From Verrucomicrobiales bacterium (GTDB taxonomy: Bacteria; Verrucomicrobiota; Verrucomicrobiia; Limisphaerales; UBA1100), in the NCBI GenBank assembly GCA_038145765.1, contig JAYQQG010000004.1:1-62459 (forward strand): DNA of 62,459 nt. Reading direction: 5' to 3'. Below are positions 35,079 to 49,781 of the stretch, piece after piece (position 1 is the stretch's first letter; every line of letters begins with the position of its first letter). The position numbers were made by a program, and so were the translations under genes. The notes under the pieces were generated by a model, which made no database searches, was not told the DNA's origin, and was given only the letters and a program-made list of their open reading frames with translations.

Positions 35079-36833
35079 TTATTTCACCCGCCGCAACATC
35101 AGCAGGCGGAATTCCAGCGCCGTATTGCCCGGGATTTTAAGGGCCTGCAACGTCAGGTCGCCTTTGCCTTTTTTCAAATCCAACACGCCCATCTTCACGG
35201 CCTTGAAATCTTTCACGTACGACTCCATGCGCTTCACGCGGTCGTTTTCCTGACCACGCGCCGGCACCTCATGGGGCTGGGCGATCCGATACCGCAAACG
35301 CTGGCCGTTGTGGCTGAGCTCCAATAGCGCCCCTTCGTCGCCTTTGGGCACGGCGTAATGCAGCGTCACTTCGTATTGACCGCTGGCGCCCACCTCGGCC
35401 GGCCACGTGATTTTGTCATCCAGTGAGGTCCAGTTGAAAAAATACGAGCAGTTGGGAAACTTGTTGGAACGCTTGATGCCGCCGTGGGCAATGCCGTCGC
35501 GTGCGGGGATTTGGGTCCATTCATAATCCGGATGCGCGATCACAAACGGCCGGTTGTCTTCGCCCAATTCCGACAACACCGTTTTCTTCCAGTGCTCCAC
35601 CTCACCCAGCAACCGCGCCGCGATCCAGGGTTTCTCCTTGCTGATGTCCTTCCGCTGACCGGGATCCGCCACCATGTCAAAGAGCTGTCCGGTGTGGCCG
35701 AGGCGATAGCGCTGTGTGCGCGCGCTAACCTTGCCGCGCCAACAATTCATGATCGTGCGATCTGCCCATTGCACTTTCTGCCCAATCAACAACGGCTTGA
35801 GACTGCGGCCATCGAGTTTCTTTTTGCTCACCACCGGCACGCCGGCGCAATCGGCCAGAGTCGGCAGCAGATCCATCACCGAAGCGATCGGCTTGATGAA
35901 CGTCCCCTTCGAAATTGCCGCCGGCCAGCGCACCAGCAACGGTGACCGCACGCCGCCTTCGTCGGTTGACCCTTTACGGCCTTTCATGCCGCCGTTCCAG
36001 CGCACGCCGTTCGGGCCGTTGTCGTGGAAGAACACCACGATGGTATCCTTGGTTACGCCGAGTTGATCGAGCTTCTTAAGCAGACGCCCCACGTTCCAGT
36101 CGATGTTCTCGCACATGGCCAGTGCGCAGCGTAGGTGCGGCAGATTTTCGCTGCGCGGATCCCGGTTGCGTAGCTTGATTTCCTTGTCCTTAAACTTGTT
36201 CCACCACCGATCCGGCACCTGCATCGGCGAGTGCGGTGTGTTGTACGGGAGATAGGCGAAGAACGGTTTGCCGGCCTCGTGACTGCGCTCCATGAAGGCC
36301 ATCGCCTTGTCGGTGAAATCATCGATGCAAAAGCCCTTGCCCTGCACAATTTTCCCGTTGTGCTCCAGTGGGGGGCTGAAATAATCGCCCCAGTGGCCCG
36401 AGCAAAACCCGTAATACTCCTCAAACCCCCGCCCGTTGGGATGGTACGGATACTGCATGCCGTTATGCCACTTGCCAAACGCGCCCGTGGCATAACCGGC
36501 GGCCTTGAAGGTATCGGCAATCGTCCGTTCATCCAGATCCATCCGCTCCCCGCCGGCCGAGGTGCTGTACACGCCCGAGCGCACATGATAGCGCCCGGTC
36601 AAAAACTCCGCCCGCGTCGGCGAACACACCGCACAAACAAAGAACCGATCAAACCGCGCCCCATCCCGCGCCAGAGAATCAATGTGCGGCGTGGCCAGAT
36701 CGGTATTGCCATTCAGACTGAGATCCCCCCAACCCTGATCGTCGGTGAGGATGACCACGATATTGGGCTGTTTAGCCTGAACTCCAAGCTGAAGGAGCAG
36801 AACAAAAAGAAAAACGATTTTCTGCACGCCCAA
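35079..36833 (-). CDS. Sulfatase (Cys-type) with a C-terminal beta-sandwich-like extension
   Basis: 584 aa with a signal peptide. Motifs are [13 protein letters not shown] and [12 protein letters not shown]. About 140 extra C-terminal residues are present ([14 protein letters not shown]...[10 protein letters not shown]). Confidence 0.9.
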
Positions 36834-36868
36834 TTCTCGCGCAGCGCTGGAATTGCGGAAAGAAATTT

Positions 36869-37546
36869 CTATTGATGATCCCAGAGCGCGCGGGCATGCC
36901 CGGCCTCATATTGGAATCCAATAACGCCCACCGGCAATGCCTCAACATGCCCGTCGGCAAACACAGCACTTGCCCGCCCTAGATGACGATTCACCATGCG
37001 CATGGGAGTTGAATTCCAGCTGACACTGGTCGGCACTTCAAAAACGGAAGCGCCATTAAAGCCTTTAGCGGAACGTTGTTCCACCCATCGGTTGGGGTCC
37101 CGATGTTCGGGATTCGCCACCAGACCTGTATCTCCGAAAGCCACCGTCAACGCTGGATTCTTGACGTGACTTAAATTGCTCAAAGTCCCAATGGCTTGAT
37201 TGAAGCCAACCCCAAGATGGCCTTGCCGACAATCCGGGCACTGCCATCCATGCTCCTGCCCAGCATGCAAACGCAGTTTGTGTTCCCACCTACTTTGCCG
37301 GGCCCCGGCAACCTTTTGCAGCACTTCCGAAGATTGTTGATCGGCAACATATCCGGCAAACGCTTCCCCCAACTGCCGATGCTGGTCCACACACTGACTG
37401 GCACTGGCTTTCAACCGTGCCCTGTTCAGAGCGGGAATAATGATGCCGGCCAAAACCCCGATCACCACGAGAATCACCAGAAGTTCGACCAACGTAAATG
37501 CTTTTTGGTTAGACCAATAGCGTTGCGTCAGTCGGTTGGGTGACAT
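36869..37546 (-). CDS. Prepilin-type N-terminal cleavage/methylation domain protein, H-X9-DG (DUF1559) family
   Basis: 225 aa. The prepilin-type N-terminus reads [27 protein letters not shown]. An exact H-X9-DG is present ([17 protein letters not shown]). Confidence 0.85.
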
Positions 37547-37596
37547 GCTTAGATGCTAGGTAATGAAAATGGTGAGTCAATCGAAAACAGTAGATT

Positions 37597-40245
37597 TTAC
37601 CTCTGATTTTCAATGGATACATCATGAAATCGATTGATACGTGGATTTTCAACGCTCTTTATCTCACCAACGACCGGACGAATAATGATTTCATTCACTG
37701 TTTCTGCCTTTCCCAAGCCGAAGTGAAGTGTGAACGGGTGCTGACTGTTATAGGAATCCCCCGTCACCACCGGCAACACCTGATGCTTATTCCCAGACCG
37801 CACTTCCACTCGCGCCCCTAGGCTGACTGTCACGGGTGGCAAATGGATTCCAACCCAGTTATTCGAAGTCTCAAGTTGGTTAGACAATAAGTGCACACGG
37901 TTGACATAGGCCCGCCGCTTCTCATCTCGGGCCCGTTCCACAACCAGCAAGTCAACCCGACCATCCAAATCCAAATCAGCTGACACCACACTACGGCTGT
38001 CAAACTCATGCCCCAACCCCAACAAATACGAAATATTGGGAAACGTGCGATCCGGTGAATTCATCAACAGTACATTATGCTCGTATCCGTTCCACGACAC
38101 CTCACTGCCCACCCCGGCCTGGCACTCATTGAACACCATTTGCATCAGTATTTCAGGACGCTTTTTATCATAATAAATATCATGCCGCCAATATTGCGTG
38201 CAGTAATCCCGTGCGGATTTGGCACTAAGAAACCCGTTGGCAACATACAGGTCGCGGTCTCCATCGTTATCAAAATCCCAAGGCGTACAGCCCCAAGCCC
38301 AACCCGTTCGCGCCAGCCGATCATTATATTCAGGCTGACGATACTGCACTGCCCCCTGTCCCAGCAACAGCCGGTTGCCGTAGCCCATTTTCATTCGTGC
38401 CTGTTGGATGTTTTCATGGCCAGGCCGCCCCAACCCCAGACTTTCAAGCCGGCGCGCCGTGGTTGAGCCCATGCCGACCATGTAGATATCAAGCCGTTGA
38501 TCCTGATCGAAATCCGCCAATGCATGACTCATGCCGAATGAGTAGTGATTGGAACCCAGCGCTTCGGTCATGTCTTCAAACTGTCCTTGCCCGTTGTTTC
38601 GGTATAAATCCAGCCCGGCAAAGTCGCTAACGACGAGCAGGTCCAAGTCACGGTCGTTATCCAAATCCACCATGGAAGCACTGTAGGTCCGGCGATGCCG
38701 TTTTGCCTCCAAACCGGCCGCTACGGTGCCATCCACAAACCGGCCGTCTCCTTCATTGATCAACAAATATGAGGGGTGCCCATCATTGGCATCATAATAC
38801 GGGGTCGGCAATTTTCCCGACATATAGGTGGCGGCATATTGCCCGATGAAGGCATCCAAATCGCCGTCTCCATCAATATCGCCACAAGTAATGCATTGCG
38901 GGTCCCGGATGGAAACCGAGGGAATTGAGGCCAAGCTGACAATCGGTTCGTTTTTTAAAACGCCGGTCTGGCTTCCTGGATAAACTCTAGGTTTACCCGC
39001 CGGGCCAATGGTCAGAAAATCTGAATAGCCGTCCCCATTAAAATCAGCCAGAACCCCAGCCTGAAATGAGTAACGATTGCCGGGCACCAAGGGCTCGGGC
39101 TTAAATTTGAAGCCCCCCTCGTTCCGATACACCAAGTTGGCCCCAGCCAAAATTATTTCAGAGCGACCGTCACGGTCAAAATCATGCACTAATAATGGCG
39201 CCGCGAGGACATCCTTTGCGCCACTCGGATTCACAGGTTGATGCCCCGGCAAATCTTGCTCCGGCTCGAAGATCCGCTGGAGTTCAAATGGGACGGCCTG
39301 TTCGCGCGTCAGAATCTTCAACTGATCCACTTCAATGGATACAGGCCGGGAATCGTTTGAAGCAGGTTTTTGATCCCATATGACTTTAAGCGCCGCCCGA
39401 ATAACCAACCGTCCCTTTCTGTTCCTTGGTTCAAGATGCAACACAATCCGGTATACGGACACCGCGTGCCCGTTGTCATCCGCCTTAAACGATTCCTGAT
39501 GCCATTCGCTTTCCCTGAGAATATACGCTAATTTCCACTGGCCTAATTGGGATTGCCACATGCCCGAATCAAGCCTCTGCCCTCCCGGTTCAAACTGTCT
39601 CTCGGTAATCCCCCAGTCATGCTGAATAAGCTTGGGATCTTTTTTGGGCAAAACAACCGAACCCACACTAAAATCTTCTAACACGCCCCAATCATGTTTT
39701 GTATTGCGCAGCTCATCCCATAACTGGACGAAAACTTCTTCATATTGTTGAGCCAATTCTTCCTGGCTCCAAATGGTCTCATCCATCTTCTTCCTTTGAG
39801 CCACGATGTGTTTCACTTGTTGCGCGGCCTTGTCCGAGGGGCCTTCCCGTTGGCTAACTTGACGCCCCTGTTTGTAAACTGTATCCCGCCGAATCAATCC
39901 ATCCTCCGACCATTCCTTCATCAAGCCGTGCGGCTGGCCATGATCCCAGCTACCTTCCATCATCAACTGACCGTCGGCATACCATTCCCTGCCCACTCCA
40001 TGACGAACCCCAGATTTAAAGCTCACCTCGGCACGAGGGGTTTTTGATTCATAATCCTCTTTGAGCACGCCCGTGAACAGCGCCCCCGTTTCGCGCCAAA
40101 CTAACCGTTGCTGCGAGTCCAATTTCAAATCCACTGGGCGAGCCGTAACCGGTGTTGCTGTTTTTGCGGAAGGCGTTTTCGGCGATTGACTACAAGACGC
40201 AACCAACCCCACTAAAACCAATACGCATGTGACTGGACTCCTCAT
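37597..40245 (-). CDS. Lipoprotein with MORN-variant repeats, conserved unassigned module, FG-GAP/VCBS propeller and UnbV/ASPIC domain (CRTAC1-like); array member 4 of 4
   Basis: 882 aa with lipobox LVGLVASC. MORN-variant units read GVRHGVGREWYADGQLMMEGSWDHGQPHGLMKEW. ESEWHQE is present. Calcium-type loops are FDRDGRSEI, GDIDGDGDLDAF, VDLDNDRDLDLLVVSDF, ADFDQDQRLDIYMVGMG and WDFDNDGDRDLYVANG. The UnbV-like C-terminus reads GARVEV...VVTGDSYNSQHP...HFGLG. Its start overlaps the upstream stop (ATGA). Confidence 0.85.
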   Translation of the reverse strand: MRSPVTCVLVLVGLVASCSQSPKTPSAKTATPVTARPVDLKLDSQQRLVWRETGALFTGVLKEDYESKTPRAEVSFKSGVRHGVGREWYADGQLMMEGSWDHGQPHGLMKEWSEDGLIRRDTVYKQGRQVSQREGPSDKAAQQVKHIVAQRKKMDETIWSQEELAQQYEEVFVQLWDELRNTKHDWGVLEDFSVGSVVLPKKDPKLIQHDWGITERQFEPGGQRLDSGMWQSQLGQWKLAYILRESEWHQESFKADDNGHAVSVYRIVLHLEPRNRKGRLVIRAALKVIWDQKPASNDSRPVSIEVDQLKILTREQAVPFELQRIFEPEQDLPGHQPVNPSGAKDVLAAPLLVHDFDRDGRSEIILAGANLVYRNEGGFKFKPEPLVPGNRYSFQAGVLADFNGDGYSDFLTIGPAGKPRVYPGSQTGVLKNEPIVSLASIPSVSIRDPQCITCGDIDGDGDLDAFIGQYAATYMSGKLPTPYYDANDGHPSYLLINEGDGRFVDGTVAAGLEAKRHRRTYSASMVDLDNDRDLDLLVVSDFAGLDLYRNNGQGQFEDMTEALGSNHYSFGMSHALADFDQDQRLDIYMVGMGSTTARRLESLGLGRPGHENIQQARMKMGYGNRLLLGQGAVQYRQPEYNDRLARTGWAWGCTPWDFDNDGDRDLYVANGFLSAKSARDYCTQYWRHDIYYDKKRPEILMQMVFNECQAGVGSEVSWNGYEHNVLLMNSPDRTFPNISYLLGLGHEFDSRSVVSADLDLDGRVDLLVVERARDEKRRAYVNRVHLLSNQLETSNNWVGIHLPPVTVSLGARVEVRSGNKHQVLPVVTGDSYNSQHPFTLHFGLGKAETVNEIIIRPVVGEIKSVENPRINRFHDVSIENQR

Positions 40246-42887
40246 GGTTTTACCTTGAAATACGCATTGATCTTGGGTTGTTTGATGCGAGTCAATTTAC
40301 CGTTGGGCCAACGCACCTCTACCCAGTCCACTTCAGTGGCTTGCCCCAATCCAAAATGACGTACTACCGGGTGCTGCGCCTTATAGGAATCTCCCGTAAC
40401 AACCGGCAGCATTTGCCGACGCCCTCCTGACTGCACCCAAACTTCTGCCCCTTGCGGCATATAGTTTGGGTTATCCAAGGGCAGCTGAACCCCCAGCCAA
40501 TGGTTGCCGGTTTGCATTTGGTTTTTTACCACGTGAACATAATTTACGAACCCGTGGGTTTTGTAGGTGTTCCGCAACTTATCCCGCTCCACAACCAGCA
40601 AATCCGCCCGGCCATCCACATCGAGATCCGCCGACACCACGCTCCGGCTATCGAATTCAAATGATAGTCCCGCCAAAAATGAAATGTTGGCATACCTCCC
40701 TGTTCCTTGATTCACGAATAATGCATTATGTTCGTATCCGTTCCATGAAATGGTCTGCCCCAGACCCGCCATGCAATGCCGATACACCCCGGTCATCACA
40801 AAACTGTCGCGCGATGACCCATCACGCAGATCATGCCGCCAAAATGTGGTGCAATAATCCTGTGCTGATTTGGCACTGAGATTGCCATTCGCGATATAGA
40901 GGTCCCGATCCCCGTCATTGTCAAAATCCCAAGGCGTACATCCCCAGGACCAGCCCGTGCGCGCCACCACATCATTGTAGTCGGGTTGCTGAAACCGGCC
41001 TGATCCTTGGCCTAACAATAATCGGTTCCCATATCCCATTTGAGGCGCAATGTCCAAATGTTCAAACCCGCGCTTTCCTTGCCCCAACCGCGTGAGCCGG
41101 CGCGCAGTCGTGGATCCCATACCAGTCATATAAACATCCAACTGCCCGTCTCCATTAAAATCGGCCAAGGCATGGCTCATGCCAAAACTGTACCTTGCAT
41201 CTCCCAGTGCTTGGGTGACGTCGTTGAATTTTCCAGATCCATCGTTTAAAAACAAATCTATACCTGCAAAATCGCTCACCACCACCAAATCCAAATCACG
41301 ATCCGCATCCAAATCCACCAGCGAAGCACTAAACGTGCGGCGCCGGTTCCGCTGCCCTAAACCGGCAGCTTGCGTTCCATCTGAAAACCCTCCCTGACCA
41401 TCATTGATCAACAAGAACGCCGGGGCCCCATCATTGGCATCATGATAGGGCGTCGGCATTTGGCCGGCCCCGTACGGGGGCTTGTACTGAGCCAGATACA
41501 CATCCAAATCCCCATCGCCATCCACGTCACCGGTCGTGATGCATTGAGCGAAATTCATCGGCGGCAGTTCAACCGTCCGCGGTGGGAATTCAAAATGTCC
41601 ATCGCCGGTTCCCCGAAACAATGCGGGCACCGCCCCATTGGCCACAGCAAACAGGTCCAACTGTCCGTCCCGATCGAAATCTGCGAGCACGGCTGCCACC
41701 AGTTCACGGCGTAATTTCGGCAGGAGCGGCCGCGCTTTAAACTTCATGTTACCTTGGTTCAGGTACAACCGATTGGCGCCCGCCATGATGATATCCGGCA
41801 AGCCATCCCCGGTCACATCCTCCACCAACAGCGGGGCCGCTAATACATTTGCCGCGGCGCCGTTTTGAGCAAGTCGCCGCAACCGTTCCACGCGTTCCGG
41901 ATCGTCTTTCAGCACATCCAATACTTGTGGTTCAGCAAACATCTGCGGGCCGTCACGGCGGAATAGATCCAACGCCAAGACCTTTAACTGTTCAGCTATG
42001 GGGCGTCCTGAAACACTCTTCTGGTTGGACCAAGTGATCTCCAGCCGAAAACGTAAAATCATTCGTTCACTGCCCCGCGTTGCATGCGCCACCACTTTGA
42101 ATTCGGACCGTGCCGGCTGCTCCCCCTGAGCCGGCTCAAACACTTCCTGATGCCATTCCGTTTCCACCAGTTGATATCCCTGCTGTTTCCATTCTTCAAC
42201 CTGCTGCTGCCACTGTTCACGTGTTTTGGTGGTCACGATCGGCTCAAATTTGGATTGGGTTACCGAATGCTGATGCTCTAGTGTTTGACGCTTCTGGACC
42301 CAGCCCACACTCGTGAACATAAAATCATGGAGGGGTTGCCAGTCATGGCGCGCTCCTCGCAAATCGTCCCACAGTTGAACCACGGTTAATTCATATTCCT
42401 GCGCCTTCACTTCGTCACTCCACGTCTCAAGATCCATCGCCTCACGGGAACGGGTGGCGGCCTGAATCTGCGCCTTTAACTTTTTAGTGGCATTCCCTTT
42501 CTCCCGGATTAACCGGCCCTCATGATACTCCGCCACGAATTCCTCCAATCCATCCCTTGAGCGCTCACGCTGGATGCCATGACGGACACCTTGGCGCCAA
42601 CTCCCTTCCCTTTTTAACTCGCCATTTAAGTACCACTCGCGTTCGACCCCATGCAACAACCCGTCTTGATAATGGCGCTCCCGGGAGGCCTCCCCGTTTG
42701 GCCAGGATTCGGCCACGACTCCGCTGAAGCGTTCGCCTGTCGATTTAAGGTAAAGACCGTTCGCCTTGGTCTCCACTTGATCCGGCGTCACCCGTGGCAG
42801 CGCCGATGGAACGGCTTGTTCGGAGGTGCGACGGCAAGCGGTTAATCCAGCCAACAGGATGATCAAAAAACAGGCTATCGGTTTCAT
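40242..42887 (-). CDS. Lipoprotein with MORN-variant repeats, conserved unassigned module, FG-GAP/VCBS propeller and UnbV/ASPIC domain (CRTAC1-like); array member 3 of 4
   Basis: 881 aa with lipobox LAGLTAC. It has the same motif order as the other members (ETEWHQE, GDVDGDGDLDVY, VDLDADRDLDLVVVSDF, ADFNGDGQLDVYMTGMG, WDFDNDGDRDLYIANG, VVTGDSYKAQHP...HFGLG). Its start shares 1 nt (TAATG) with the upstream stop. Confidence 0.85.
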   Translation of the reverse strand: MKPIACFLIILLAGLTACRRTSEQAVPSALPRVTPDQVETKANGLYLKSTGERFSGVVAESWPNGEASRERHYQDGLLHGVEREWYLNGELKREGSWRQGVRHGIQRERSRDGLEEFVAEYHEGRLIREKGNATKKLKAQIQAATRSREAMDLETWSDEVKAQEYELTVVQLWDDLRGARHDWQPLHDFMFTSVGWVQKRQTLEHQHSVTQSKFEPIVTTKTREQWQQQVEEWKQQGYQLVETEWHQEVFEPAQGEQPARSEFKVVAHATRGSERMILRFRLEITWSNQKSVSGRPIAEQLKVLALDLFRRDGPQMFAEPQVLDVLKDDPERVERLRRLAQNGAAANVLAAPLLVEDVTGDGLPDIIMAGANRLYLNQGNMKFKARPLLPKLRRELVAAVLADFDRDGQLDLFAVANGAVPALFRGTGDGHFEFPPRTVELPPMNFAQCITTGDVDGDGDLDVYLAQYKPPYGAGQMPTPYHDANDGAPAFLLINDGQGGFSDGTQAAGLGQRNRRRTFSASLVDLDADRDLDLVVVSDFAGIDLFLNDGSGKFNDVTQALGDARYSFGMSHALADFNGDGQLDVYMTGMGSTTARRLTRLGQGKRGFEHLDIAPQMGYGNRLLLGQGSGRFQQPDYNDVVARTGWSWGCTPWDFDNDGDRDLYIANGNLSAKSAQDYCTTFWRHDLRDGSSRDSFVMTGVYRHCMAGLGQTISWNGYEHNALFVNQGTGRYANISFLAGLSFEFDSRSVVSADLDVDGRADLLVVERDKLRNTYKTHGFVNYVHVVKNQMQTGNHWLGVQLPLDNPNYMPQGAEVWVQSGGRRQMLPVVTGDSYKAQHPVVRHFGLGQATEVDWVEVRWPNGKLTRIKQPKINAYFKVKP

Positions 42888-45502
42888 TATTTTGGCTGAA
42901 CCCTGTGCACTTGATTGATTGCCGGCAAAGCCCAGCGCAAAGGCTTCTTGCCGGGCTGTTCGATGAGCACTTCCTTCACCTGTTCAGCAGCGCCCAAGCC
43001 AAAGTGCAAGCGCGCCGGATGTTGCGCATTATAGGAATCACCGGTCACCACGGGCAACACTTGCGCCCTTTCAGCTGTACGCACGGTTACTGTGGTACCA
43101 ATTGGATTATCGGCCGGGTTAAACTGGACCGCCAGCCAGTTTCCAGCTTGAGAAAGTTGGTTGCGCACCAAGTGCAGATAATGCTCAGCCCGGCCTGTCC
43201 CATGGCGATTGGTCAACTGATCCATCTGCACCACTATCAAATCCGTACGGCCATCCCCATCCAAATCGGAGGCCACCACCGAGCGGCTATCAAATTCGAA
43301 ACCGACCCCCATTAAATATCCCACGTTGAGATAGAGACCTTCTCCTTCATTAAGCAACAAGGCATTGTGTTCGTAGCCGTTCCAGGACACCTCTTTCCCA
43401 AGGCCTTTCATGCAGCGATTGTACACTTCCTGCATTAACAGAGTCTCCGTCGAGATCCCATCGCGAATATCGTGACGCCAAAATGTGGTGCAATAATCCT
43501 GTGCCGAGCGGGCACTGAGCATTCCATTGGCCACATATAAGTCGCGGTCGCCATCATTATCAAAATCCCACGGAGAACAGCCCCATGACCATCCGGTACG
43601 CGCGAGGCGATCATTGTAGGAAGCCTGCGCAAACCGGCCCTGTCCATTCCCCAAAAACAAGCGGTTCCCATAACCCATATCCGGCGCCGCATCCAAATGC
43701 TCGAATCCTTTCTCCCCAAGCCCCAGCCCCGCCAAACGGCGGGCCGTGGTGGAGCCCATTCCCACCATGTAAATATCCAGCGCACCGTCCCCATCAAAAT
43801 CCGCCACGGCATGGCTCATGCCAAAACTATGGCGTGTTTTTCCCAAGTGATCGGTCACCTCTTTAAATCTTCCCTGCCCCTGATTCTCATAAAGATCAAT
43901 GCCGGCAAAGTCACTGATGACCATCAAATCCAAGTCGCCATCCCGGTCCCAATCCACGCAGGATGCACTATAAGTCCGGCGGTTACGCTTGGCCCCCAAG
44001 CCGGCTTGCAAGGTGCCGTCCACAAATCGGCCTGTTCCATCGTTCAACAATAATGCCGCGGGAAATCCATCATTGGCATCATAATACGGGGTGGGCATTT
44101 GGCCGCCACCGTACGGAGTCTTATATTGAGCGACAAACACGTCTAGATCCCCGTCTCCATCCACATCACCAGTTGCCGCGCATTGGGGAAAGGTAAACCG
44201 TGCGGATCGGCTGATCATTGCATTCGATCTTTGAAACCCCTTTCCATCGGCTTGTCCGGGAAACACCACAGGCCAACCATCCGGCGCAATCGCAAACCAA
44301 TCCAAAATTCCATCTCCATTAAATTCCCCCAATGCCCCGGTCCGAAACCGGATTGGTTTCCCCTCAATAAGGGGCTGTTTCTCAAACTGGAATTCTCCGC
44401 GGTTGCGATACATAATCCCACTGCCCCCGAGAATGATTTCCGGCAGTTGATCCCCATCCAGATCTTCCACAATTAGCGGTGCTGGAAATATGCTCGCTCC
44501 TTCCTGCCGTTTCAGGGCCTCAATATTTGGATCATCTAAGGTCAAATCTTTAACGGCTTTCACCGCAAATACCGGCTCACCTGCCCGCTCCCAAGCCCGC
44601 AAAGATTCCACCACCAACTTAGTCGGGCGTTTTTGATCATCCCACCGGACATGCAATGAAGCCTGAATAATGAACCGGCGCGGTTCGGGGTTGGGCTGTC
44701 GCAGGTGCAGGCGTACTTTGAAAATGGACTGAGGCGAGCTTGCATCTGGCACAAACTTTTCCTGATGCCATTCCGATTCCTCTAACAACCACCCGGCCTG
44801 TTCCCATTCAGCAATTTGTGCCAGCCAAGTTTCCCGCGTCCAAACCCGTGGTTCCGATTTCGGTTCGAGTTCGTCGATGCCCCAACTCCGCTGAATTATT
44901 CTCCCCCATTCCGGTGCAGATAAGGATTGAAACGAAAACGTTTTTATAACTTCCCATGGATTCTCTGCCTCGCGCAACGCATCCCAGAGCTGAACGAATA
45001 TTTTCTCGTGGTCTTGAGCCGCCATTTCACCTGCCCAAACCGTTTGATCCATCCTTTCCCGTTCCGCCATTGCCGAAGCCACCTTGCCTTGCAACGCTTG
45101 AGTCGGGTGTGTCTCGCGACGAACGACCTGCCCCTTTTGGTTGTACTGAGTATCTGTGCGCAATAGCCCATCACTGGACCACTCGTGAACGATGCCGGAA
45201 GGAATCCCCTGAACCCATGCACCCTCGAGCGCCTTGGAGCCGTCCGCATGCCATTCCACACTGGCCCCATGGCGTTTGCCGTCCTGAAAATGAATCTCCG
45301 CTTTGGGTTTTCCATTTGGAGTATAATCCCGAAGCAGTCCGGTAAACAATTCACCGGTCACCTTGTCTCGAACAACGCCGTCATGAGCCAGCAATTGGGT
45401 CGATGACCGAACGGTAAGCTGAACCGTCGGCGGGGATTCGCGCGCCTCCCGGCCGCATCCCATCCAAACCATTAAGCAAAGCACAACCCCCAGCGGCTTC
45501 AT
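42887..45502 (-). CDS. Lipoprotein with MORN-variant repeats, conserved unassigned module, FG-GAP/VCBS propeller and UnbV/ASPIC domain (CRTAC1-like); array member 2 of 4
   Basis: 871 aa with lipobox LMVWMGC. Motifs are ESEWHQE, GDVDGDGDLDVF, VDWDRDGDLDLMVISDF, ADFDGDGALDIYMVGMG, WDFDNDGDRDLYVANG and VVTGDSYNAQHP...HFGLG. There is an ATGA overlap with the upstream stop. Confidence 0.85.
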   Translation of the reverse strand: MKPLGVVLCLMVWMGCGREARESPPTVQLTVRSSTQLLAHDGVVRDKVTGELFTGLLRDYTPNGKPKAEIHFQDGKRHGASVEWHADGSKALEGAWVQGIPSGIVHEWSSDGLLRTDTQYNQKGQVVRRETHPTQALQGKVASAMAERERMDQTVWAGEMAAQDHEKIFVQLWDALREAENPWEVIKTFSFQSLSAPEWGRIIQRSWGIDELEPKSEPRVWTRETWLAQIAEWEQAGWLLEESEWHQEKFVPDASSPQSIFKVRLHLRQPNPEPRRFIIQASLHVRWDDQKRPTKLVVESLRAWERAGEPVFAVKAVKDLTLDDPNIEALKRQEGASIFPAPLIVEDLDGDQLPEIILGGSGIMYRNRGEFQFEKQPLIEGKPIRFRTGALGEFNGDGILDWFAIAPDGWPVVFPGQADGKGFQRSNAMISRSARFTFPQCAATGDVDGDGDLDVFVAQYKTPYGGGQMPTPYYDANDGFPAALLLNDGTGRFVDGTLQAGLGAKRNRRTYSASCVDWDRDGDLDLMVISDFAGIDLYENQGQGRFKEVTDHLGKTRHSFGMSHAVADFDGDGALDIYMVGMGSTTARRLAGLGLGEKGFEHLDAAPDMGYGNRLFLGNGQGRFAQASYNDRLARTGWSWGCSPWDFDNDGDRDLYVANGMLSARSAQDYCTTFWRHDIRDGISTETLLMQEVYNRCMKGLGKEVSWNGYEHNALLLNEGEGLYLNVGYLMGVGFEFDSRSVVASDLDGDGRTDLIVVQMDQLTNRHGTGRAEHYLHLVRNQLSQAGNWLAVQFNPADNPIGTTVTVRTAERAQVLPVVTGDSYNAQHPARLHFGLGAAEQVKEVLIEQPGKKPLRWALPAINQVHRVQPK

Positions 45503-48159
45503 TCACTACCCTCCAAGGTGTGGTATTGGTTGCGATCGGGTTTCGGCCACTCGGTTGATTTTCCGTCAGGCCAAATGATCTCCATTCTGGCGACCTCAGC
45601 GTTTCCCAGCCCAAAATGCACACTGGTGCCGTGCTGTGCCTTCCAAGAATCCCCGGTGACCACCGGCAGTTCCTGTGTCAGTCCATTTGTTTGATGCACC
45701 CGAACGCGTGCCCCCCAAATCGGCCGGCCGGGTTCCGGCTTTAAATGTAACCCGATCCAGGCGTTTTCTTTGGGGGATAAATTGCGGACCAACCGGATTT
45801 GCCCATCCCGCTGTCGGTCATTGCCCTGTTCTTTTTCCACCACCAACAGATCCACTCTTCCGTCCAAATCCAAGTCAGCCGAAACCACTGAGCGACAGTC
45901 GGATTCGATCGAGAGCCCCAGTAGATGCGAGATGCTTTGGTAATTCCCGTTCCCTTGATTCAGATACAATACGTTATGCTCGAACCCATTCCATGACTCG
46001 GTCACCCCCAAGTCTGACTGACATTCCTTGAATACTCCCGCCATCACCACACTTTTAACGTCGATCTTCGGTGTGTAAATATCGTGTCGCCAAAATTTAG
46101 TGCAGTAATCTTTTGCGGATTTACCGCTGATGTGTCCATTGGCAATGTACAGGTCGCGGTCTCCATCGTTATCAAAATCCCAGGGGGTACAGCCCCAAGC
46201 CCAACCTGTCCGGGCCAATTGATGATTATACGGGGCCTGTTTAAACCCGCCTTGGCCGTCGCCTAATAGCAATCGGTTGCCGTAACCCATTTTCATCCGG
46301 GCCGCCTGCACCGATTCAAACCCTTTACGGCCCAGCCCTAAATGTTCCAGACGCCGCGCCGTTGTGGAGCCCATCCCCACCATATAGAGGTCCATATTTC
46401 CGTCTGCATTAAAATCGGCGAAAGCATGGCTCATCCCAAAGGAGTAATGGGCGGTTCCCAATGTCTCGGTAATATCGTTAAACCGCCCCTTGCCATCGTT
46501 GAGGTACAGATCGAGTCCGGAGAAATCACTTACCACCACCAAGTCCAAATCATGGTCTCCATCCAAATCCACCAAGGACGCACTATACGTCCGCCGCAAT
46601 CGTTTCGCCGCCAAACCAGCGGCAACCGTGCCATCGGTAAACTGGCCTTTCCCGTCATTGATTAACAAATATGCCGGCAGCCCATCCAGCGCGTCGTAAT
46701 AAGGTGTGGGGGCCCGCCCAGCGGTATAAGGATTTAAATATTGCGGGACAAAGGCATCGAGATCGCCGTCCCCATCCACATCCCCTACCGCCACAGCCGA
46801 TGGGTCACTCAGTTGAGTCCGCGCAATCTTTTCCAGGCTAATCAACGGCGGCTCGGCAAACCGGCCATCGGGTTTCCCCGGGAATACCATGGGCTTTTCA
46901 GCCGGCCCGAATGTCAACAAATCCGGCCGGCCATCCCCGGTAAAATCCACGACCGCCGCCGCATCGGGAAACTGGCCACGCCCGCCACTCAACAATGGCT
47001 CGGGCTCAAACCGAAACGCCCCGCGGTTCCAATAGATCAGGTTGGAACCGGTCGGGATAATCTCTGGCAGATGATCCCCGTTCAGGTCTCGCACCAGTAA
47101 AGGAGCCGGATCGACCCCTCCCGGAATGCGTGCCCGCGTAAACTGCGGATTATCCCTTCGCACCTTGAGCAACCCGGCTGTTTCAAAGGGAAGAACTCCG
47201 GCCCGGCGCCATTCGCTCAGTTTCTCAACCACGAGTTTCCGGGGCAGCCAGACCCCGGCCTCATTTTTGGTATCTCCCCAATAAACCCGCAGGGCCCCCC
47301 GTAAAATCAACCGCTCCCCTCCTGATTTCGTGTGCGCATGCAGGGTGAATTTAAACAGAGAACGAGCCCCTTCCGGGGACGGATCAAACTCTTCCTGATG
47401 CCATTCAGATTCATCCAATACATACTGTTCGGCCCATATCCCCAGACCCTGCTCCCACTGTTTATGGTTCACTTGCTCGGCCGGTGCGCTCCATTCTCGC
47501 AACCGTATACCCCAGTCGTGCATTACCGGTGCCCCCGGTTGGCCCCAGGAGATGGCTTCAAACGGGAATTCCTTCCAGACCTCCCAACCGTGTTGCGTCG
47601 CCCGCAATCGATCCCAAAGATGAACAAACGTGCGCTCGAAGTCCTGTGCCTGCACCTCATCCTTCCAGTCCTTTTGATCCAGCTGTTCGCGTTGCTTCAA
47701 CTCCGCATCAATCTGCACCTGCGCCTTTTCCGAAGCGCCCGTTTCATCAGAGATCAGTTTACCCTCCCGATATACCATCGTGCGCTTTAACAAGCCATCC
47801 GGCGACCATTCGGTCACGGTGCCGACCGGTTGGCCCTGCTTCCATTCCCCCTGCAATCCCAATTGGCCCGTTTCATGCCACGCCTTACTCGGACCTTCAC
47901 GCAGCCCTTCCACAAACGAATATTCCAGACGTGGTGTTCCATTTGGCCATTTCTCATACTGAACCCCGGTAAATGGCATGCCGGTGGAACGTAGCAGCAT
48001 CCGCCCGTCCGGCTGCTGGGCCAGTTTCAGCAGACTAACTCGCCCCTCATCTTGACTCGCCGTTTCGACCGAAGACCGGTCACACCCCAGCATGAGTCCC
48101 ATGCAAAGAATTAGGGTAAATATCGGAATTGATAATGAAGCAATTTTTCTCTCGCTCAT
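45499..48159 (-). CDS. Lipoprotein with MORN-variant repeats, conserved unassigned module, FG-GAP/VCBS propeller and UnbV/ASPIC domain (CRTAC1-like); array member 1 of 4
   Basis: The ORF 45499..48384 is trimmed to Met76 (ATG at 48159), giving 886 aa. That Met opens a lipobox signal (MSERKIASLSIPIFTLILCMGLMLGC), matches the paralog lengths and removes the overlap with the + strand gene at 48218. Motifs are ESEWHQE, GDVDGDGDLDAF, VDLDGDHDLDLVVVSDF, ADFNADGNMDLYMVGMG, WDFDNDGDRDLYIANG and VVTGDSWKAQH...HFGLG. Confidence 0.85.
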   Translation of the reverse strand: MSERKIASLSIPIFTLILCMGLMLGCDRSSVETASQDEGRVSLLKLAQQPDGRMLLRSTGMPFTGVQYEKWPNGTPRLEYSFVEGLREGPSKAWHETGQLGLQGEWKQGQPVGTVTEWSPDGLLKRTMVYREGKLISDETGASEKAQVQIDAELKQREQLDQKDWKDEVQAQDFERTFVHLWDRLRATQHGWEVWKEFPFEAISWGQPGAPVMHDWGIRLREWSAPAEQVNHKQWEQGLGIWAEQYVLDESEWHQEEFDPSPEGARSLFKFTLHAHTKSGGERLILRGALRVYWGDTKNEAGVWLPRKLVVEKLSEWRRAGVLPFETAGLLKVRRDNPQFTRARIPGGVDPAPLLVRDLNGDHLPEIIPTGSNLIYWNRGAFRFEPEPLLSGGRGQFPDAAAVVDFTGDGRPDLLTFGPAEKPMVFPGKPDGRFAEPPLISLEKIARTQLSDPSAVAVGDVDGDGDLDAFVPQYLNPYTAGRAPTPYYDALDGLPAYLLINDGKGQFTDGTVAAGLAAKRLRRTYSASLVDLDGDHDLDLVVVSDFSGLDLYLNDGKGRFNDITETLGTAHYSFGMSHAFADFNADGNMDLYMVGMGSTTARRLEHLGLGRKGFESVQAARMKMGYGNRLLLGDGQGGFKQAPYNHQLARTGWAWGCTPWDFDNDGDRDLYIANGHISGKSAKDYCTKFWRHDIYTPKIDVKSVVMAGVFKECQSDLGVTESWNGFEHNVLYLNQGNGNYQSISHLLGLSIESDCRSVVSADLDLDGRVDLLVVEKEQGNDRQRDGQIRLVRNLSPKENAWIGLHLKPEPGRPIWGARVRVHQTNGLTQELPVVTGDSWKAQHGTSVHFGLGNAEVARMEIIWPDGKSTEWPKPDRNQYHTLEGSE

Positions 48160-48217
48160 TTTTTGAATTTGATTACAATGCATCCCTATTTGCCAATCAA
48201 GCAAACAGTATCCGAAT

Positions 48218-48421
48218 ATGAAAAAAACCATTGTTACCATCACAGCAACTCTCGCTCTGGCTACCCTGACCATCGGCTGCGGCGGCGAAGCGGAACCCAC
48301 CGAACCCACTGCCGCAGATAACGCGGAGAACAGCCAAGCCAACGAAAACACCGAGGGCGGTGATCCTTCCAGCGAGGAATCCAATCAAGGCGGCAGCACT
48401 CCGGGCAAGCCCCAGAACTAA
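48218..48421 (+). CDS. Small acidic, low-complexity lipoprotein (67 aa)
   Basis: Lipobox signal MKKTIVTITATLALATLTIGC is followed by an E/N/S/G/P-rich tail. A strong rho-independent terminator lies 29 nt downstream. The gene is divergent from the array, 58 bp from its start. No clear Shine-Dalgarno sequence is present. Confidence 0.55.
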   Translation: MKKTIVTITATLALATLTIGCGGEAEPTEPTAADNAENSQANENTEGGDPSSEESNQGGSTPGKPQN

Positions 48422-48449
48422 GCCGTTACTGAACCCAACGATTTGCACA

Positions 48450-48474
48450 GCCCCCGTTAACGGGGGCTTTTTTG
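48450..48474 (+). terminator. Rho-independent terminator of the small lipoprotein gene
   Basis: Stem-loop GCCCCCG-TTAA-CGGGGGC (48450-48467) followed by TTTTTT. Confidence 0.75.
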
Positions 48475-48500
48475 TTGGCTTGTTGAAAATCATGGCCATC

Positions 48501-48530
48501 AAAAAAGGCGCCACTCTCGTGGCGCCTTTT
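48501..48530 (-). terminator. Rho-independent (potentially bidirectional) terminator downstream of 48545..49576
   Basis: Stem-loop GGCGCCAC-TCTC-GTGGCGCC (48507-48526), flanked by AAAAAA on the left (a U-run on the minus strand) and TTTT on the right. Confidence 0.7.
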
Positions 48531-48544
48531 GAATACCGGATGGT

Positions 48545-49576
48545 CTAGTTCCAACGGTTCCCCGCCTGTGAAGGACGGATAAACACGAGGTTTGGACCCC
48601 CATAATTTTGTTTTTGGTGGTGCCCGCCTGACTTGTAGGACTCAGCGTGCTTCACCGCAATGGCTTTGTACTCCGCATCGCCAGATGTCTGAGATGTGGA
48701 GCCATCGGACATCACGATGTTGCCCTGACCTTCAGTCAGGCCACTCATGGCATAGTCCTTGGATTCAGACGCCCCGTAGAAGTGGGGGTTCAGCAAGGTT
48801 TGGGCATCAAAGTTGGAGTTATCCGCCTTGTCGCCGTAGGCATCAAAGGCAGCCTTATCCACCGCCATCACTGCCTCACCGCGCCAATCGTTACCGTACA
48901 TCTCCGTGCCGCCGTATTTCCAGCCGCCGCCCCAGCCATCACCATGGCCGAACTTGCGAAGGAACTCCGTCGTGCCCACCCCAGCGGTGGTCGCCATATT
49001 GCGCGTGGTCGCGATGATCGTCTCGGGCAACAACGCATCGGCGCCCTGAGCTAAGGCGTAGCTTTGACGGTTCGGATCAATCCAGGAACCATGCGAACCA
49101 CTGCCCGTGCCGTTCAATTGTTCCCAGCCGTAAAGCTTATGGCCGTGTTCGGCATTGTTCATCTGCTTCATGTGGTTTGAGTAAGCCTTGGGATCCGAAG
49201 GCGAAACGGCCGCTTCGGCCTTGCCTAATTGATCCACATACTCAAAACCCCGCATCCAACCGGCGACCTGATAGGGGTTTTGCCAGTCACGCCAGCCCTT
49301 GGCTTTCATAAGATTATTATCGCGGTTGGCCAGTGCCGGATCATCCAGATGGAAAAATCCATCCGCGCTGGTTGCGTAACCCTGATATGCTTTGCCGATT
49401 TGGCCCAGCTTGTTGGCGCATTTCATGCGATTGGCTTTGGCTTTCGCCTTGGCCAAGGTCGGTAACAACATGCTGGCCAGAATACCAATAATGGCGATCA
49501 CAACCAACAGTTCAATCAAAGTGAAAGCCGCCTTGCGGTCAGCCATCAGCTTACGAACCTTTTGAGTTAATTTCAT
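48545..49576 (-). CDS. Prepilin-type N-terminal cleavage/methylation domain protein (DUF1559-like, degenerate H-X9-DG)
   Basis: 343 aa. The N-terminus reads [50 protein letters not shown]. The C-terminal GNIVMSDGS keeps the DG but not the His. The RBS is AGGAGA, 7 nt upstream of the ATG. Confidence 0.8.
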
Positions 49577-49609
49577 TGTTTTCTCCTGTTTTATGGTTTT
49601 TCGATTTAC

Positions 49610-49648
49610 CTGCGTGATTTTCTGCTATCATGCGTCAATTTCACGCAG
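49610..49648 (-). promoter_or_regulatory. Inverted repeat in the 5' leader or promoter region of the pseudopilin gene
   Basis: CTGCGTGA (49610-49617) and TCACGCAG (49641-49648) form a perfect 8-bp inverted repeat with a 23-nt spacer, 34 nt upstream of the start codon. Function is unknown. Confidence 0.3.
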
Positions 49649-49781
49649 CTGTTTCGAGTTGTTGCTGATTTTTCAGGCGTTTCTTCAACTCCGTCCAAAC
49701 CAATAGCCGTGATACCGCAATAATTATGCCAGCATGAATGATTGTTGAGAACTTCCAACGGATTACTAGGAAAACCTCAGG

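What the first reader, a model, noticed from the sequence alone, without database searches (positions are those of the whole stretch)
37597..48159. Tandem array of four translationally coupled ~880-aa MORN / FG-GAP(VCBS) / UnbV-ASPIC lipoprotein paralogs
Seen in sequence:
- Four consecutive minus-strand genes encode proteins of 886, 871, 881 and 882 aa.
- Each opens with a lipobox signal (LMLGC, WMGC, LTAC, VASC).
- All four have the same domain order. It runs from about 3 MORN-variant (YwqK-like) units through a helical linker and a conserved ~190-aa unassigned module. Five or six Ca-type D-x-D-x-D-G FG-GAP/VCBS blades follow, then a UnbV/ASPIC-like C-terminus (VVTGDSY.AQHP..HFGLG).
- All three internal junctions are stop/start overlaps (ATGA at 45499-45502, TAATG at 42887, ATGA at 40242-40245).
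- The copies are diverged. By eye the propeller region is roughly two-thirds identical and the N-terminal halves much less so. This suggests an old, maintained duplication rather than a recent amplification.

Established knowledge: VCBS plus UnbV_ASPIC is the CRTAC1-family architecture. MORN repeats are membrane- or lipid-proximal modules.

Inference: obligate co-translation of four distinct lipid-anchored integrin-like propellers suggests a hetero-oligomeric envelope or cell-surface complex. The lipoprotein-MORN-unknown module N-terminal half is not part of the usual CRTAC1 description. The array is bracketed by pseudopilin genes (36869..37546 and 48545..49576). This is my best candidate for an undescribed system in the window.
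Basis: partly seen in the sequence, partly recalled or inferred. Interest (0 to 1): 0.75.

Follow-up and report, generated by a model that had tools for sequence, protein, structure and literature searches.

The report
Four-gene array of CRTAC1-like lipoproteins
Four old, tightly packed gene copies in a marine Verrucomicrobiales genome encode membrane-anchored, calcium-binding propeller proteins of the uncharacterised bacterial CRTAC1 family. They carry an extra, previously unassigned NTF2-like domain, which makes them a conserved but functionally unknown variant of a known protein kind, not a new system.

Summary
Four minus-strand genes (886, 871, 881 and 882 aa) with lipobox signals are joined by ATGA/TAATG/ATGA overlaps. 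The paralogs are equidistant, at 46.7-48.7% identity.

Each protein runs, in order:
- signal peptide and lipobox;
- a MORN-type repeat module;
- a propeller region with seven Ca-type motifs;
- a UnbV_ASPIC C-terminus.

The best structural match is murine CRTAC1.

The NTF2-plus-propeller core defines a subfamily of about 550-690 clusters at 50% identity in PVC bacteria, Myxococcales and others. Most members are single-copy. Only the lipoprotein/MORN branch forms arrays of 3, 4 or 5 genes.

In a relative at about 62% identity the four genes have one-to-one orthologs in the same order, and the two copies with enough divergence to measure are under purifying selection. The duplication is therefore old and maintained.

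Prepilin-like genes are enriched next to subfamily genes.

A hetero-oligomeric complex could not be tested, and overlapping junctions are common elsewhere in this window. I read this as a co-expressed set of envelope binding proteins. It is a new variant of a known kind, of moderate interest.

The parts
45499..48159 (-). Gene A, 886 aa. Lipoprotein signal (…LMLGC), MORN-type repeats, NTF2-like domain, seven-motif Ca-type FG-GAP/VCBS propeller region, UnbV_ASPIC C-terminus.
   Evidence: ORF and translation. Pfam FG-GAP_3 8.6e-45 and UnbV_ASPIC 4.9e-12. Ortholog L001_1 at 65% identity.
42887..45502 (-). Gene B, 871 aa. Same architecture, lipobox VWMGC.
   Evidence: Ortholog L001_2 at 61%. dN/dS 0.12 against L171.
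40242..42887 (-). Gene C, 881 aa. Same architecture, lipobox LTAC. This is the protein that was modelled.
   Evidence: AlphaFold2 model with pLDDT 94.1 and pTM 0.89. Ortholog L001_3 at 64%.
37597..40245 (-). Gene D, 882 aa. Same architecture, lipobox VASC.
   Evidence: Orthologs L001_4 at 60% and the L011 protein at 60.6%.
42489..42782 (-). MORN-type beta-hairpin repeat module of C (residues 36-133). The equivalent segment is present in A, B and D.
   Evidence: The model shows strands over residues 38-133. MORN_2 matches 19 of 19 family N-termini at E<=1, best 1.2e-12. A profile hits the SET7/9 MORN domain at 6e-4. Each window protein on its own is below Pfam's cut-off.
41943..42488 (-). NTF2-like alpha+beta domain of C (residues 134-315: three helices and a curved six-stranded sheet).
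   Evidence: Model of residues 134-345 with pLDDT 95.2. Foldseek hits are mostly NTF2-superfamily folds, as I recognise them: LDB1/LDB2 self-association domain, scytalone-dehydratase-like, dioxygenase beta subunits, LinA, ketosteroid isomerase (E 2.8e-4 to about 4e-2). No Pfam family matches.
40578..41852 (-). FG-GAP/VCBS beta-propeller region of C (residues 346-770) with seven D-x-D-x-D-G-like loops. It also carries subfamily-specific conserved inserts (PTPYYDANDG, GMGSTTARRL, YGNRL, DYCTxFWRHD, SWNGYEHN).
   Evidence: These inserts are not in the stretches that align with CRTAC1.
40245..40577 (-). UnbV_ASPIC-type C-terminal beta domain of C (residues 771-881).
   Evidence: Pfam UnbV_ASPIC 6.4e-15. 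Aligns to CRTAC1 residues 379-485.
45499..45502 (-). A/B junction: ATGA stop/start overlap.
42885..42889 (-). B/C junction: TAATG, 1-nt overlap.
40242..40245 (-). C/D junction: ATGA stop/start overlap.
36869..37546 (-). 225-aa prepilin-like protein (N_methyl motif; an H-x9-DG-like C-terminal motif read by eye). It lies 50 nt downstream of D and may be co-transcribed.
   Evidence: Pfam N_methyl. Only the N-terminal motif matches pilin models. No terminator-like site was found in the gap. The same D-then-225-aa-gene arrangement occurs in L011 (49% identity), L171 and L172.
48545..49576 (-). 343-aa prepilin-like protein upstream of the array. It is a separate transcription unit.
   Evidence: The hairpin plus T-run after its stop was read directly from the sequence. 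An ortholog occupies the same place in L001 and L171.
48218..48421 (+). Divergent 67-aa small lipoprotein ORF between the array and the upstream prepilin-like gene, followed by a terminator-like hairpin at 48449-48468.
   Evidence: A similar ORF sits at the same place in L001.

Best explanation
Shown. The locus is an operon-like array of four anciently duplicated, individually conserved genes. Each encodes a lipid-anchored extracytoplasmic protein of the bacterial CRTAC1 / UnbV-ASPIC family. The array belongs to a distinct subfamily in which an NTF2-like domain precedes the Ca-type FG-GAP propeller region. In this marine Verrucomicrobiales branch, a lipoprotein signal and a MORN-type repeat module precede the NTF2-like domain.

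Inferred. The four proteins are made together and sit on a membrane face of the cell envelope. They act as a set of Ca2+-stabilised, integrin/lectin-like binding modules. All four share one highly conserved site on the central propeller blades, so they probably have a common ligand class or chemistry. They differ in the NTF2-like domain, the first blades and the C-terminal domain, so they probably differ in specificity or partner. The MORN module would hold the propeller close to the membrane. The NTF2-like domain would act either as a small-ligand pocket or as a self-association module. Neighbouring prepilin-like proteins are probable functional partners.

The ligand is unknown. A glycan is the best guess, from the lectin and integrin relatives and the sulfatase-rich setting.
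For: - Architecture and fold: Pfam domains; full-length model with pLDDT 94; CRTAC1 9etn is the top structural match at E 3.6e-23, TM 0.68 on the target; NTF2-like fold of residues 134-315; MORN at family level.
- Extracytoplasmic and membrane-tethered: all four proteins have lipoboxes. MORN-less homologs carry a signal peptide, lipobox or N-terminal hydrophobic anchor. One homolog is fused behind a VKOR membrane domain followed by a CxxC-containing segment.
- Old, maintained, non-redundant copies: one-to-one orthologs in the same order in L001 at 60-65%, against 44-50% for non-orthologous pairs. dN/dS is 0.12-0.16, and 0.03-0.08 in the propeller.
- Shared conserved core with divergent periphery: 67-76% identity in the central blades against 20-45% elsewhere.
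- Binding-protein relatives: a profile search of the PDB finds Ca-dependent fungal PVL lectins and integrin alpha propellers next after CRTAC1.
- Co-expression is plausible: the junctions overlap, the same packing occurs in L001, L003 and L010, and metatranscriptome contigs touch all four genes.
- Prepilin-like neighbours: 15 gene starts in 116 kb within 1.5 kb of subfamily genes, against 9 in 486 kb at 1.5-10 kb.
Against: - No ligand, activity or localisation has been measured for any bacterial member of this family. Literature searches found only mentions of it as an expanded paralog family.
- The strongly conserved subfamily-specific inserts could be a catalytic site and not a binding site.
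- Sulfatases and prepilin-like genes are very abundant in PVC genomes, so the context argument is weak. The enrichment test used loci that are not phylogenetically independent.
- The metatranscriptome evidence is thin: low-depth contigs, no strand information and possible DNA carry-over.
- I had no model coordinates, so I could not check where the conserved residues lie in three dimensions.
Confidence: 0.5

Rival explanations
1. Obligate hetero-oligomer. The four paralogs assemble, perhaps through their NTF2-like domains, into one defined lipoprotein complex in the envelope. Translational coupling would set equal stoichiometry.
For: - All four copies are retained in the same order across lineages that differ by about 38% in protein sequence, and D is retained with the same downstream synteny in L011.
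- The junctions overlap.
- The best structural neighbours of the NTF2-like domain are the self-association domains of LDB1/LDB2. Dioxygenase beta subunits are also among the hits; that these are oligomeric is my own knowledge.
- In the wider family, two propellers are fused in one chain in Bacteroidota proteins of about 1100 aa.
Against: - Array size is 3, 4 or 5 in different clades, and the window clade and the L003/L010 clade look like separate expansions.
- Most subfamily members are single-copy in their contigs.
- Overlaps of 1 or 4 nt are common elsewhere in this window (coordinates).
- Between close strains, B and C have exchanged alleles independently of A and D. Tightly co-adapted subunits would be expected to disfavour this.
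Confidence: 0.2
2. Paralogous enzymes. The conserved propeller inserts, the polar residues of the NTF2-like pocket, or both form an active site acting on a small molecule or glycan. The four copies would cover related substrates.
For: - Subfamily-specific, near-invariant polar motifs (RRTYSAS, GMGSTTARRL, YGNRL, FWRHD, SWNGYEHN; E-x-E-W-H in the NTF2-like sheet) are conserved across 75 homologs and are not in the stretches that align with CRTAC1.
- Purifying selection is extremely strong in the central blades, with omega 0.03-0.08.
- Many NTF2-like folds are enzymes; scytalone dehydratase-like, LinA and ketosteroid isomerase are among the hits.
- A propeller enzyme, aldos-2-ulose dehydratase, is among the fold hits.
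- JGI annotates relatives as "enediyne biosynthesis protein E4". That the UnbV side of the family sits in enediyne clusters is my own knowledge.
Against: - No catalytic family was matched by sequence.
- No biosynthetic or polyketide genes lie nearby.
- Structural matches to enzymes are weak (E 1e-3 to 1e-2, TM about 0.4-0.6).
- The best-matching relatives are binding proteins.
Confidence: 0.2
3. Recent or neutral amplification. The array would be redundant copies drifting apart, or partly decayed, with no distinct roles.
For: Expansion of UnbV_ASPIC paralogs is a general habit of the family: it is listed among the paralog families analysed in Solibacter, and tandem arrays occur in Bacteroidota.
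Against: - The paralogs are equidistant at about 47% identity with intact reading frames.
- One-to-one orthologs keep the same order in a distant relative.
- dN/dS is well below 1 where divergence is large enough to measure.
Confidence: 0.03

Closest known systems
CRTAC1 (cartilage acidic protein 1, PDB 9etn) and bacterial proteins that NCBI names "CRTAC1 family protein"
   Same: Ca-type FG-GAP/VCBS beta-propeller followed by a UnbV_ASPIC beta domain. It is the top structural match (E 3.6e-23). Homologs of the window proteins carry this NCBI name.
   Different: The window proteins add about 350 N-terminal residues (lipobox, MORN-type repeats, NTF2-like domain). They also carry conserved propeller inserts that are not in the stretches aligning with CRTAC1. 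Sequence identity is about 18%. From my own knowledge, vertebrate CRTAC1 has a C-terminal EGF-like domain; this was not examined here beyond the absence of any such Pfam hit.
UnbV / "enediyne biosynthesis protein E4" branch of the same Pfam architecture
   Same: FG-GAP_3 plus UnbV_ASPIC. JGI annotates several relatives with this name.
   Different: No enediyne polyketide synthase or other biosynthetic genes lie in the window. The name is an annotation transfer, not a tested function.
Bacteroidota VCBS/UnbV_ASPIC proteins of about 1100 aa
   Same: Same superfamily. They are also found as tandem arrays of 2-3 genes (L067, L069, L076, L152).
   Different: They have a propeller, then UnbV_ASPIC, then a second propeller in one chain. 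They match the window proteins only over the propeller and C-terminus (query residues from about 350 on), so no MORN or NTF2-like N-terminal module aligns. Identity is 24-29%.
Psathyrella velutina lectin (PVL) and integrin alpha-subunit propellers
   Same: FG-GAP propellers with D-x-D-x-D-G loops. They are the next-best PDB sequence relatives.
   Different: They share only the repeat-level propeller similarity and have no UnbV_ASPIC, NTF2-like or MORN parts. That the sugar- or ligand-binding residues are shared has not been shown.
NTF2-like superfamily (LDB1/LDB2 self-association domain, SnoaL/scytalone-dehydratase-like, ring-hydroxylating dioxygenase beta subunit, ketosteroid isomerase)
   Same: The fold of residues 134-315: N-terminal helices and a curved sheet forming a cone.
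   Different: No sequence family matches. Identity to the hits is 8-16%. Whether the domain binds a ligand, catalyses a reaction or mediates oligomerisation is not known.
PVC-expanded prepilin-like N_methyl / SBP_bac_10 (DUF1559) proteins
   Same: The two flanking "pseudopilin" genes carry the N_methyl motif. The family is heavily expanded and of unknown function in Planctomycetes (PMC8567305, PMC10632474).
   Different: The window's two proteins do not reach the SBP_bac_10 or GspG cut-offs. They are not components of a recognisable type II secretion or type IV pilus gene cluster in the window.

Membership tests
CRTAC1 / UnbV-ASPIC family | FG-GAP/VCBS beta-propeller with Ca-type D-x-D-x-D-G loops | tested here: met
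   FG-GAP_3 at 1e-38 to 3e-45 in all four proteins. Seven motif sites per protein. The modelled propeller region has high confidence.
CRTAC1 / UnbV-ASPIC family | C-terminal UnbV_ASPIC domain directly after the propeller | tested here: met
   PF07593 scores 44.6-55.2 bits against a cut-off of 23.4 in all four proteins. It aligns to CRTAC1 residues 379-485.
CRTAC1 / UnbV-ASPIC family | Overall structural similarity to a solved member | tested here: met
   Foldseek: 9etn_A at E 3.6e-23, TM 0.68 normalised on the target, 584 aligned columns.
Vertebrate CRTAC1 proper | C-terminal EGF-like domain (feature recalled from my own knowledge) | tested here: not met
   No EGF-type Pfam hit in any of the four proteins at E<=0.01. 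The window proteins end with the UnbV_ASPIC domain.
MORN repeat proteins (MORN_2 / YwqK-like) | Tandem beta-hairpin repeats of about 23 aa matching the MORN or MORN_2 profile | tested here: inconclusive
   The window proteins are below the cut-off or unmatched (C 18.9 bits, D 20.0 bits, against 29.6). All 19 homologous N-termini match MORN_2 at E<=1, best 1.2e-12. A family profile hits the SET7/9 MORN domain. The model shows hairpin repeats.
NTF2-like superfamily | Alpha+beta cone: three N-terminal helices packed on a curved antiparallel sheet | tested here: met
   Model with pLDDT 95. Most of the top 50 Foldseek hits are folds I recognise as NTF2-like, nearly all at probability 0.97-1.0 and TM up to 0.65 on the target. 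This is fold-level only; no sequence family matches.
Bacterial lipoproteins | Signal peptide ending in a lipobox with an invariant Cys | tested here: met
   LMLG|C, VWMG|C, LTA|C and VAS|C after hydrophobic h-regions. Orthologs in L001, L003 and L010 also carry lipobox-like motifs. Lipidation itself cannot be tested here.
Type II secretion pseudopilins / type IV pilins (flanking genes) | Full-length match to a pilin or pseudopilin equivalog, and a location in a T2SS or T4P cluster | tested here: not met
   Only the N-terminal methylation motif matches. GspG scores 32.5 and 34.9 bits against a cut-off of 88.85. No secretion or pilus assembly genes were found in the window ORFs that were scanned.
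   No multimer prediction or experimental data were available. The indirect evidence is mixed.

The most novel reading that the evidence does not exclude
The four paralogs assemble through their NTF2-like domains into a defined hetero-oligomeric lipoprotein complex. This complex works together with the adjacent prepilin-like proteins as a PVC-type envelope apparatus for capturing or handing over substrates such as glycans. It would be a previously undescribed module made from CRTAC1-like propellers.
Probability: 0.12. Interest if true: 0.7.

Novelty: new variant of a known kind. Interest (0 to 1): 0.4.

Why it matters
I found no functional study of any bacterial CRTAC1/UnbV-ASPIC protein in the literature searches, although the family is widespread and much expanded in PVC bacteria, Acidobacteria and Bacteroidota. 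This locus does three useful things.

- It defines a clean subfamily with an extra NTF2-like domain that has no Pfam model.
- It gives a natural experiment: four copies kept in fixed order, with a shared conserved propeller site and divergent peripheries.
- It shows a statistical link to the equally enigmatic prepilin-like proteins of PVC bacteria.

Any ligand or partner found for one of these proteins would give a first functional handle on both families, and possibly a hint for vertebrate CRTAC1. As it stands this is a comparative-genomics lead, not a mechanism.

Tried and rejected
- NCBIfam scan of the four proteins: only noise-level hits.
- Pfam scan of the NTF2-like module in 44 homologs: nothing consistent.
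- Sequence search of the PDB with protein D alone: only a weak CRTAC1 hit. The family profile did better.
- Literature searches on UnbV/ASPIC, CRTAC1 structure and function, and DUF1559: no functional study of bacterial members. The VCBS-superfamily preprint does not mention the family.
- Looking up the window's own protein in the assembly index: not on record.
- RNA evidence: a single metatranscriptome with low-depth contigs. It is too thin to call an operon. Its one "joint" (38277 to 43533) has only 20 nt on its shorter side, and I judge it an assembly chimera between conserved paralogous stretches.
- Search for paralog-specific conserved sites: too few ortholog sets to localise a specificity region.
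- Positive selection on the NTF2-like sheet was considered and rejected. Omega there is 0.21-0.26, relaxed relative to the propeller but still purifying.
- Reading the overlapping junctions as special was considered and rejected. The same overlaps occur in the RND efflux operon and elsewhere in the window.


Full report
**1. The observation**

The region 37597-48159 holds four consecutive minus-strand ORFs:

| Gene | Coordinates | Length |
|---|---|---|
| A | 45499-48159 | 886 aa |
| B | 42887-45502 | 871 aa |
| C | 40242-42887 | 881 aa |
| D | 37597-40245 | 882 aa |

- For A, the mechanical ORF extends to a TTG at 48384. The ATG at 48159 yields a normal signal peptide ending in a lipobox, and this N-terminus is conserved in a close relative.
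- The three internal junctions are ATGA, TAATG and ATGA overlaps exactly as described.
- All six paralog pairs are 46.7-48.7% identical. The central propeller is 67-76% identical and the N-terminal half about 30-45%.
- Pfam finds FG-GAP_3, FG-GAP and UnbV_ASPIC above the gathering cut-offs in all four proteins. MORN_2 appears only below cut-off, in C and D.

There are seven Ca-type motif sites per protein and not five or six. MORN holds at family level only.

**2. Anatomy**

An AlphaFold2 model of C, built with 75 homologs, is very confident (pLDDT 94.1, pTM 0.89). It shows, in order:

- a signal peptide;
- beta-hairpin repeats over residues 38-133;
- three helices (135-188) and a six-stranded sheet with one further helix (193-312);
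- a short helical linker;
- the propeller region (about 346-770);
- a C-terminal beta domain.

Against the PDB, the whole model is closest to murine CRTAC1 (9etn_A: E 3.6e-23, TM 0.68 on the target).

I modelled residues 134-345 separately (pLDDT 95.2). Most of the Foldseek hits are folds I recognise as NTF2-like: the LDB1/LDB2 self-association domain, scytalone-dehydratase-like proteins, dioxygenase beta subunits, LinA and ketosteroid isomerase. No Pfam model matches it in any of 44 homologs.

The N-terminal hairpin module matches MORN_2 in 19 of 19 homologs at E<=1 (best 1.2e-12). As a profile, it also matches the MORN domain of SET7/9.

**3. Family and distribution**

A search with C found two groups:

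- About 26 clusters cover its full length (about 850-900 aa).
- About 55 clusters of about 770-830 aa cover only residues from about 135 onward. These have the NTF2-like domain, the propeller and UnbV_ASPIC, but no MORN module.

The shorter proteins start with a signal peptide, a lipobox or a hydrophobic anchor. NCBI names members "CRTAC1 family protein"; JGI names some "enediyne biosynthesis protein E4".

A profile of the NTF2-like module against 1.84 billion representatives finds 689 clusters at E<=1e-3 and 551 at E<=1e-10. In the full-length hits listed, the module sits at the N-terminal side of proteins of these two size classes.

Named genomes holding the subfamily are all metagenome-assembled. 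They come from Verrucomicrobiales and other Verrucomicrobia, Pirellulales and other Planctomycetota, Myxococcales, a Deltaproteobacteria MAG and Chthoniobacter.

The window itself comes from a marine or estuarine organism. Its relative L011 is labelled uncultured Verrucomicrobiales.

Several highly conserved propeller inserts are subfamily-specific and are not in the stretches that align with CRTAC1: PTPYYDANDG, GMGSTTARRL, YGNRL, DYCTxFWRHD and SWNGYEHN.

**4. Is the tandem arrangement conserved?**

Yes, but only in the MORN/lipoprotein branch.

- L171 (95-99% identical) and L001 (60-65%) have the same four genes in the same order with the same flanks.
- Each window gene pairs with the L001 gene at the same position, at 65, 61, 64 and 60% identity. 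Non-orthologous pairs are 44-50% identical.
- L011 keeps the D ortholog (60.6%) and the same downstream genes: the 225-aa prepilin-like gene, a sulfatase and a PSCyt-WD40 protein.
- A second clade has arrays of three (L002-L004) and five (L010). These show partial, order-preserving orthology to each other and look like a separate expansion from the window clade.
- By contrast, about 35-40 loci with the MORN-less form hold a single copy.
- In the wider superfamily, Bacteroidota proteins of about 1100 aa contain two propellers in one chain and also occur in tandem sets of two or three.

**5. Selection and population variation**

Against L171:

| Gene | dN/dS | dS |
|---|---|---|
| A | 0.14 | 0.018 (few substitutions) |
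| B | 0.12 | 0.145 |
| C | 0.16 | 0.165 |
| D | not informative | 0.003 (almost no substitutions) |

Within B and C the propeller is the most constrained (omega 0.03-0.08) and the NTF2-like sheet and linker the least (0.21-0.36).

Nucleotide divergence from L171 is about 0.2-1% across most of the locus. It rises to 3-15% between about 40.9 and 45.4 kb, peaking over the NTF2-like sheets of C and B. This fits a recombination-imported segment spanning B and most of C.

**6. Context**

The array starts its own unit. Upstream lie a divergent 67-aa lipoprotein ORF, which is conserved in L001, and terminator-like hairpins. Only beyond these comes a 343-aa prepilin-like gene.

Downstream, 50 nt after D and with no terminator-like site in the gap, lies a 225-aa prepilin-like gene. 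After it, all on the same strand, come a sulfatase, a PSCyt1-WD40-PSCyt2-PSD1 protein, a DUF6797 protein and an FHA-Ser/Thr kinase.

Both "pseudopilins" match pilin models only at the N-terminal methylation motif. They belong with the heavily expanded N_methyl/SBP_bac_10 proteins of PVC bacteria, whose function is unknown (PMC8567305, PMC10632474).

The association still seems real. Across 42 subfamily loci, prepilin-motif gene starts occur at these densities:

| Distance from the subfamily gene | Starts per 10 kb |
|---|---|
| within 1.5 kb | 1.29 |
| 1.5-4 kb | 0.30 |
| 4-10 kb | 0.13 |

The caveat is that the loci are not phylogenetically independent.

Overlapping junctions are not special here. 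Overlaps of 1 or 4 nt also occur at about six other same-strand junctions in the window, including the RND efflux operon.

**7. Mechanism**

Shown:
- extracytoplasmic, membrane-tethered proteins of the CRTAC1 family;
- copies that are old and individually conserved;
- tight packing compatible with one transcript;
- a shared, strongly constrained central propeller with divergent peripheries.

Inferred: a co-expressed set of Ca2+-stabilised binding modules at the envelope. The nearest relatives after CRTAC1 are the Ca-dependent PVL lectins and the integrin alpha propellers. The MORN module would hold the propeller near the membrane. The NTF2-like domain would serve as a ligand pocket or a self-association module.

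Rivals:
- An obligate hetero-oligomer. It is supported by the order-conserved retention of all four copies and by the oligomeric neighbours of the NTF2-like fold. It is weakened by the variable array size, the single-copy majority, and the independent allele exchange of B and C.
- Paralogous enzymes. This is supported by the near-invariant polar inserts and by the many enzymes with NTF2-like folds. No catalytic family was matched.
- Neutral amplification. This is contradicted.

**8. Verdict**

The family assignment is right, and the unassigned module is now assigned as NTF2-like. The tandem arrangement is conserved but lineage-restricted. The hetero-complex idea remains an untested possibility.

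This is a new variant of a known, uncharacterised protein family and not a new system. Interest is moderate.

Noticed in passing
window 40900-45400 (most of gene C and nearly all of gene B), compared with L171: Divergence from the close relative L171 jumps from about 0.2-1% to 3-15% over this stretch only, peaking at 15% over the NTF2-like sheet of C (41865-42364) and 7.8% over that of B. dS is 0.145-0.165 for B and C, against 0.003-0.018 for A and D. This looks like a recombination-imported allele block inside the array.
   Followed up: partly
window 48218-48421 (+), with a terminator-like hairpin at 48449-48468: A 67-aa acidic small lipoprotein ORF (MKKTIV…TIGC…) lies divergent from gene A. 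A similar ORF sits at the same position in L001 (4413-4673). Its function is unknown.
   Followed up: partly
42 subfamily loci (window, L003-L029, L092-L136): Genes with a prepilin-type GFTLIEL-like motif are 4-10 times denser within 1.5 kb of NTF2/CRTAC1-like genes than at 1.5-10 kb (15 in 116 kb against 9 in 486 kb). They lie on either strand. The loci are not phylogenetically independent.
   Followed up: partly
protein P0020 (1240 aa): One homolog has an N-terminal VKOR membrane domain (precomputed Pfam PF07884), followed by a CxxC-containing segment that looks DsbA- or thioredoxin-like by eye, fused in front of the MORN, NTF2-like and propeller parts. More distant family members carry AhpC/redoxin domains with TPR repeats (P0084, P0086, P0088). 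This is a recurring thiol-redox association of unknown meaning.
   Followed up: no
protein P0121 (987 aa): One relative carries two NTF2-like modules in tandem before the propeller.
   Followed up: no
L010 20553-21053: A stand-alone 166-aa protein with a faint MORN_2 hit follows the five-gene array directly, and a prepilin-like SBP_bac_10 gene follows that.
   Followed up: no
window 36000-50000: The array and its immediate flanks have lower G+C (0.52-0.56) than the neighbouring 30-36 kb and 50-52 kb stretches (0.60-0.63). Another low-G+C stretch lies at 22-30 kb.
   Followed up: no
window 31605-35036 (-): A 1143-aa protein combines PSCyt1, a WD40 propeller, PSCyt2 and PSD1. A homologous 1147-aa ORF lies at the syntenic position downstream in L011.
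   Followed up: no
window 25153-28776 (-): A 1207-aa protein has an N-terminal FHA domain and a Ser/Thr kinase domain, then about 800 residues with no Pfam match.
   Followed up: no
window 12994-19450 (+): A three-gene RND efflux operon (OEP, HlyD-like, AcrB-type) has 4-nt overlaps at both junctions. It served as an internal control showing that such overlaps are ordinary in this genome.
   Followed up: yes
window 38277 / 43533, metatranscriptome run X25: One contig joins homologous positions of genes D and B (it skips 5255 nt, with only 20 nt on its shorter side). I judge it an assembly chimera across a nucleotide stretch conserved between paralogs, not a real deletion.
   Followed up: partly
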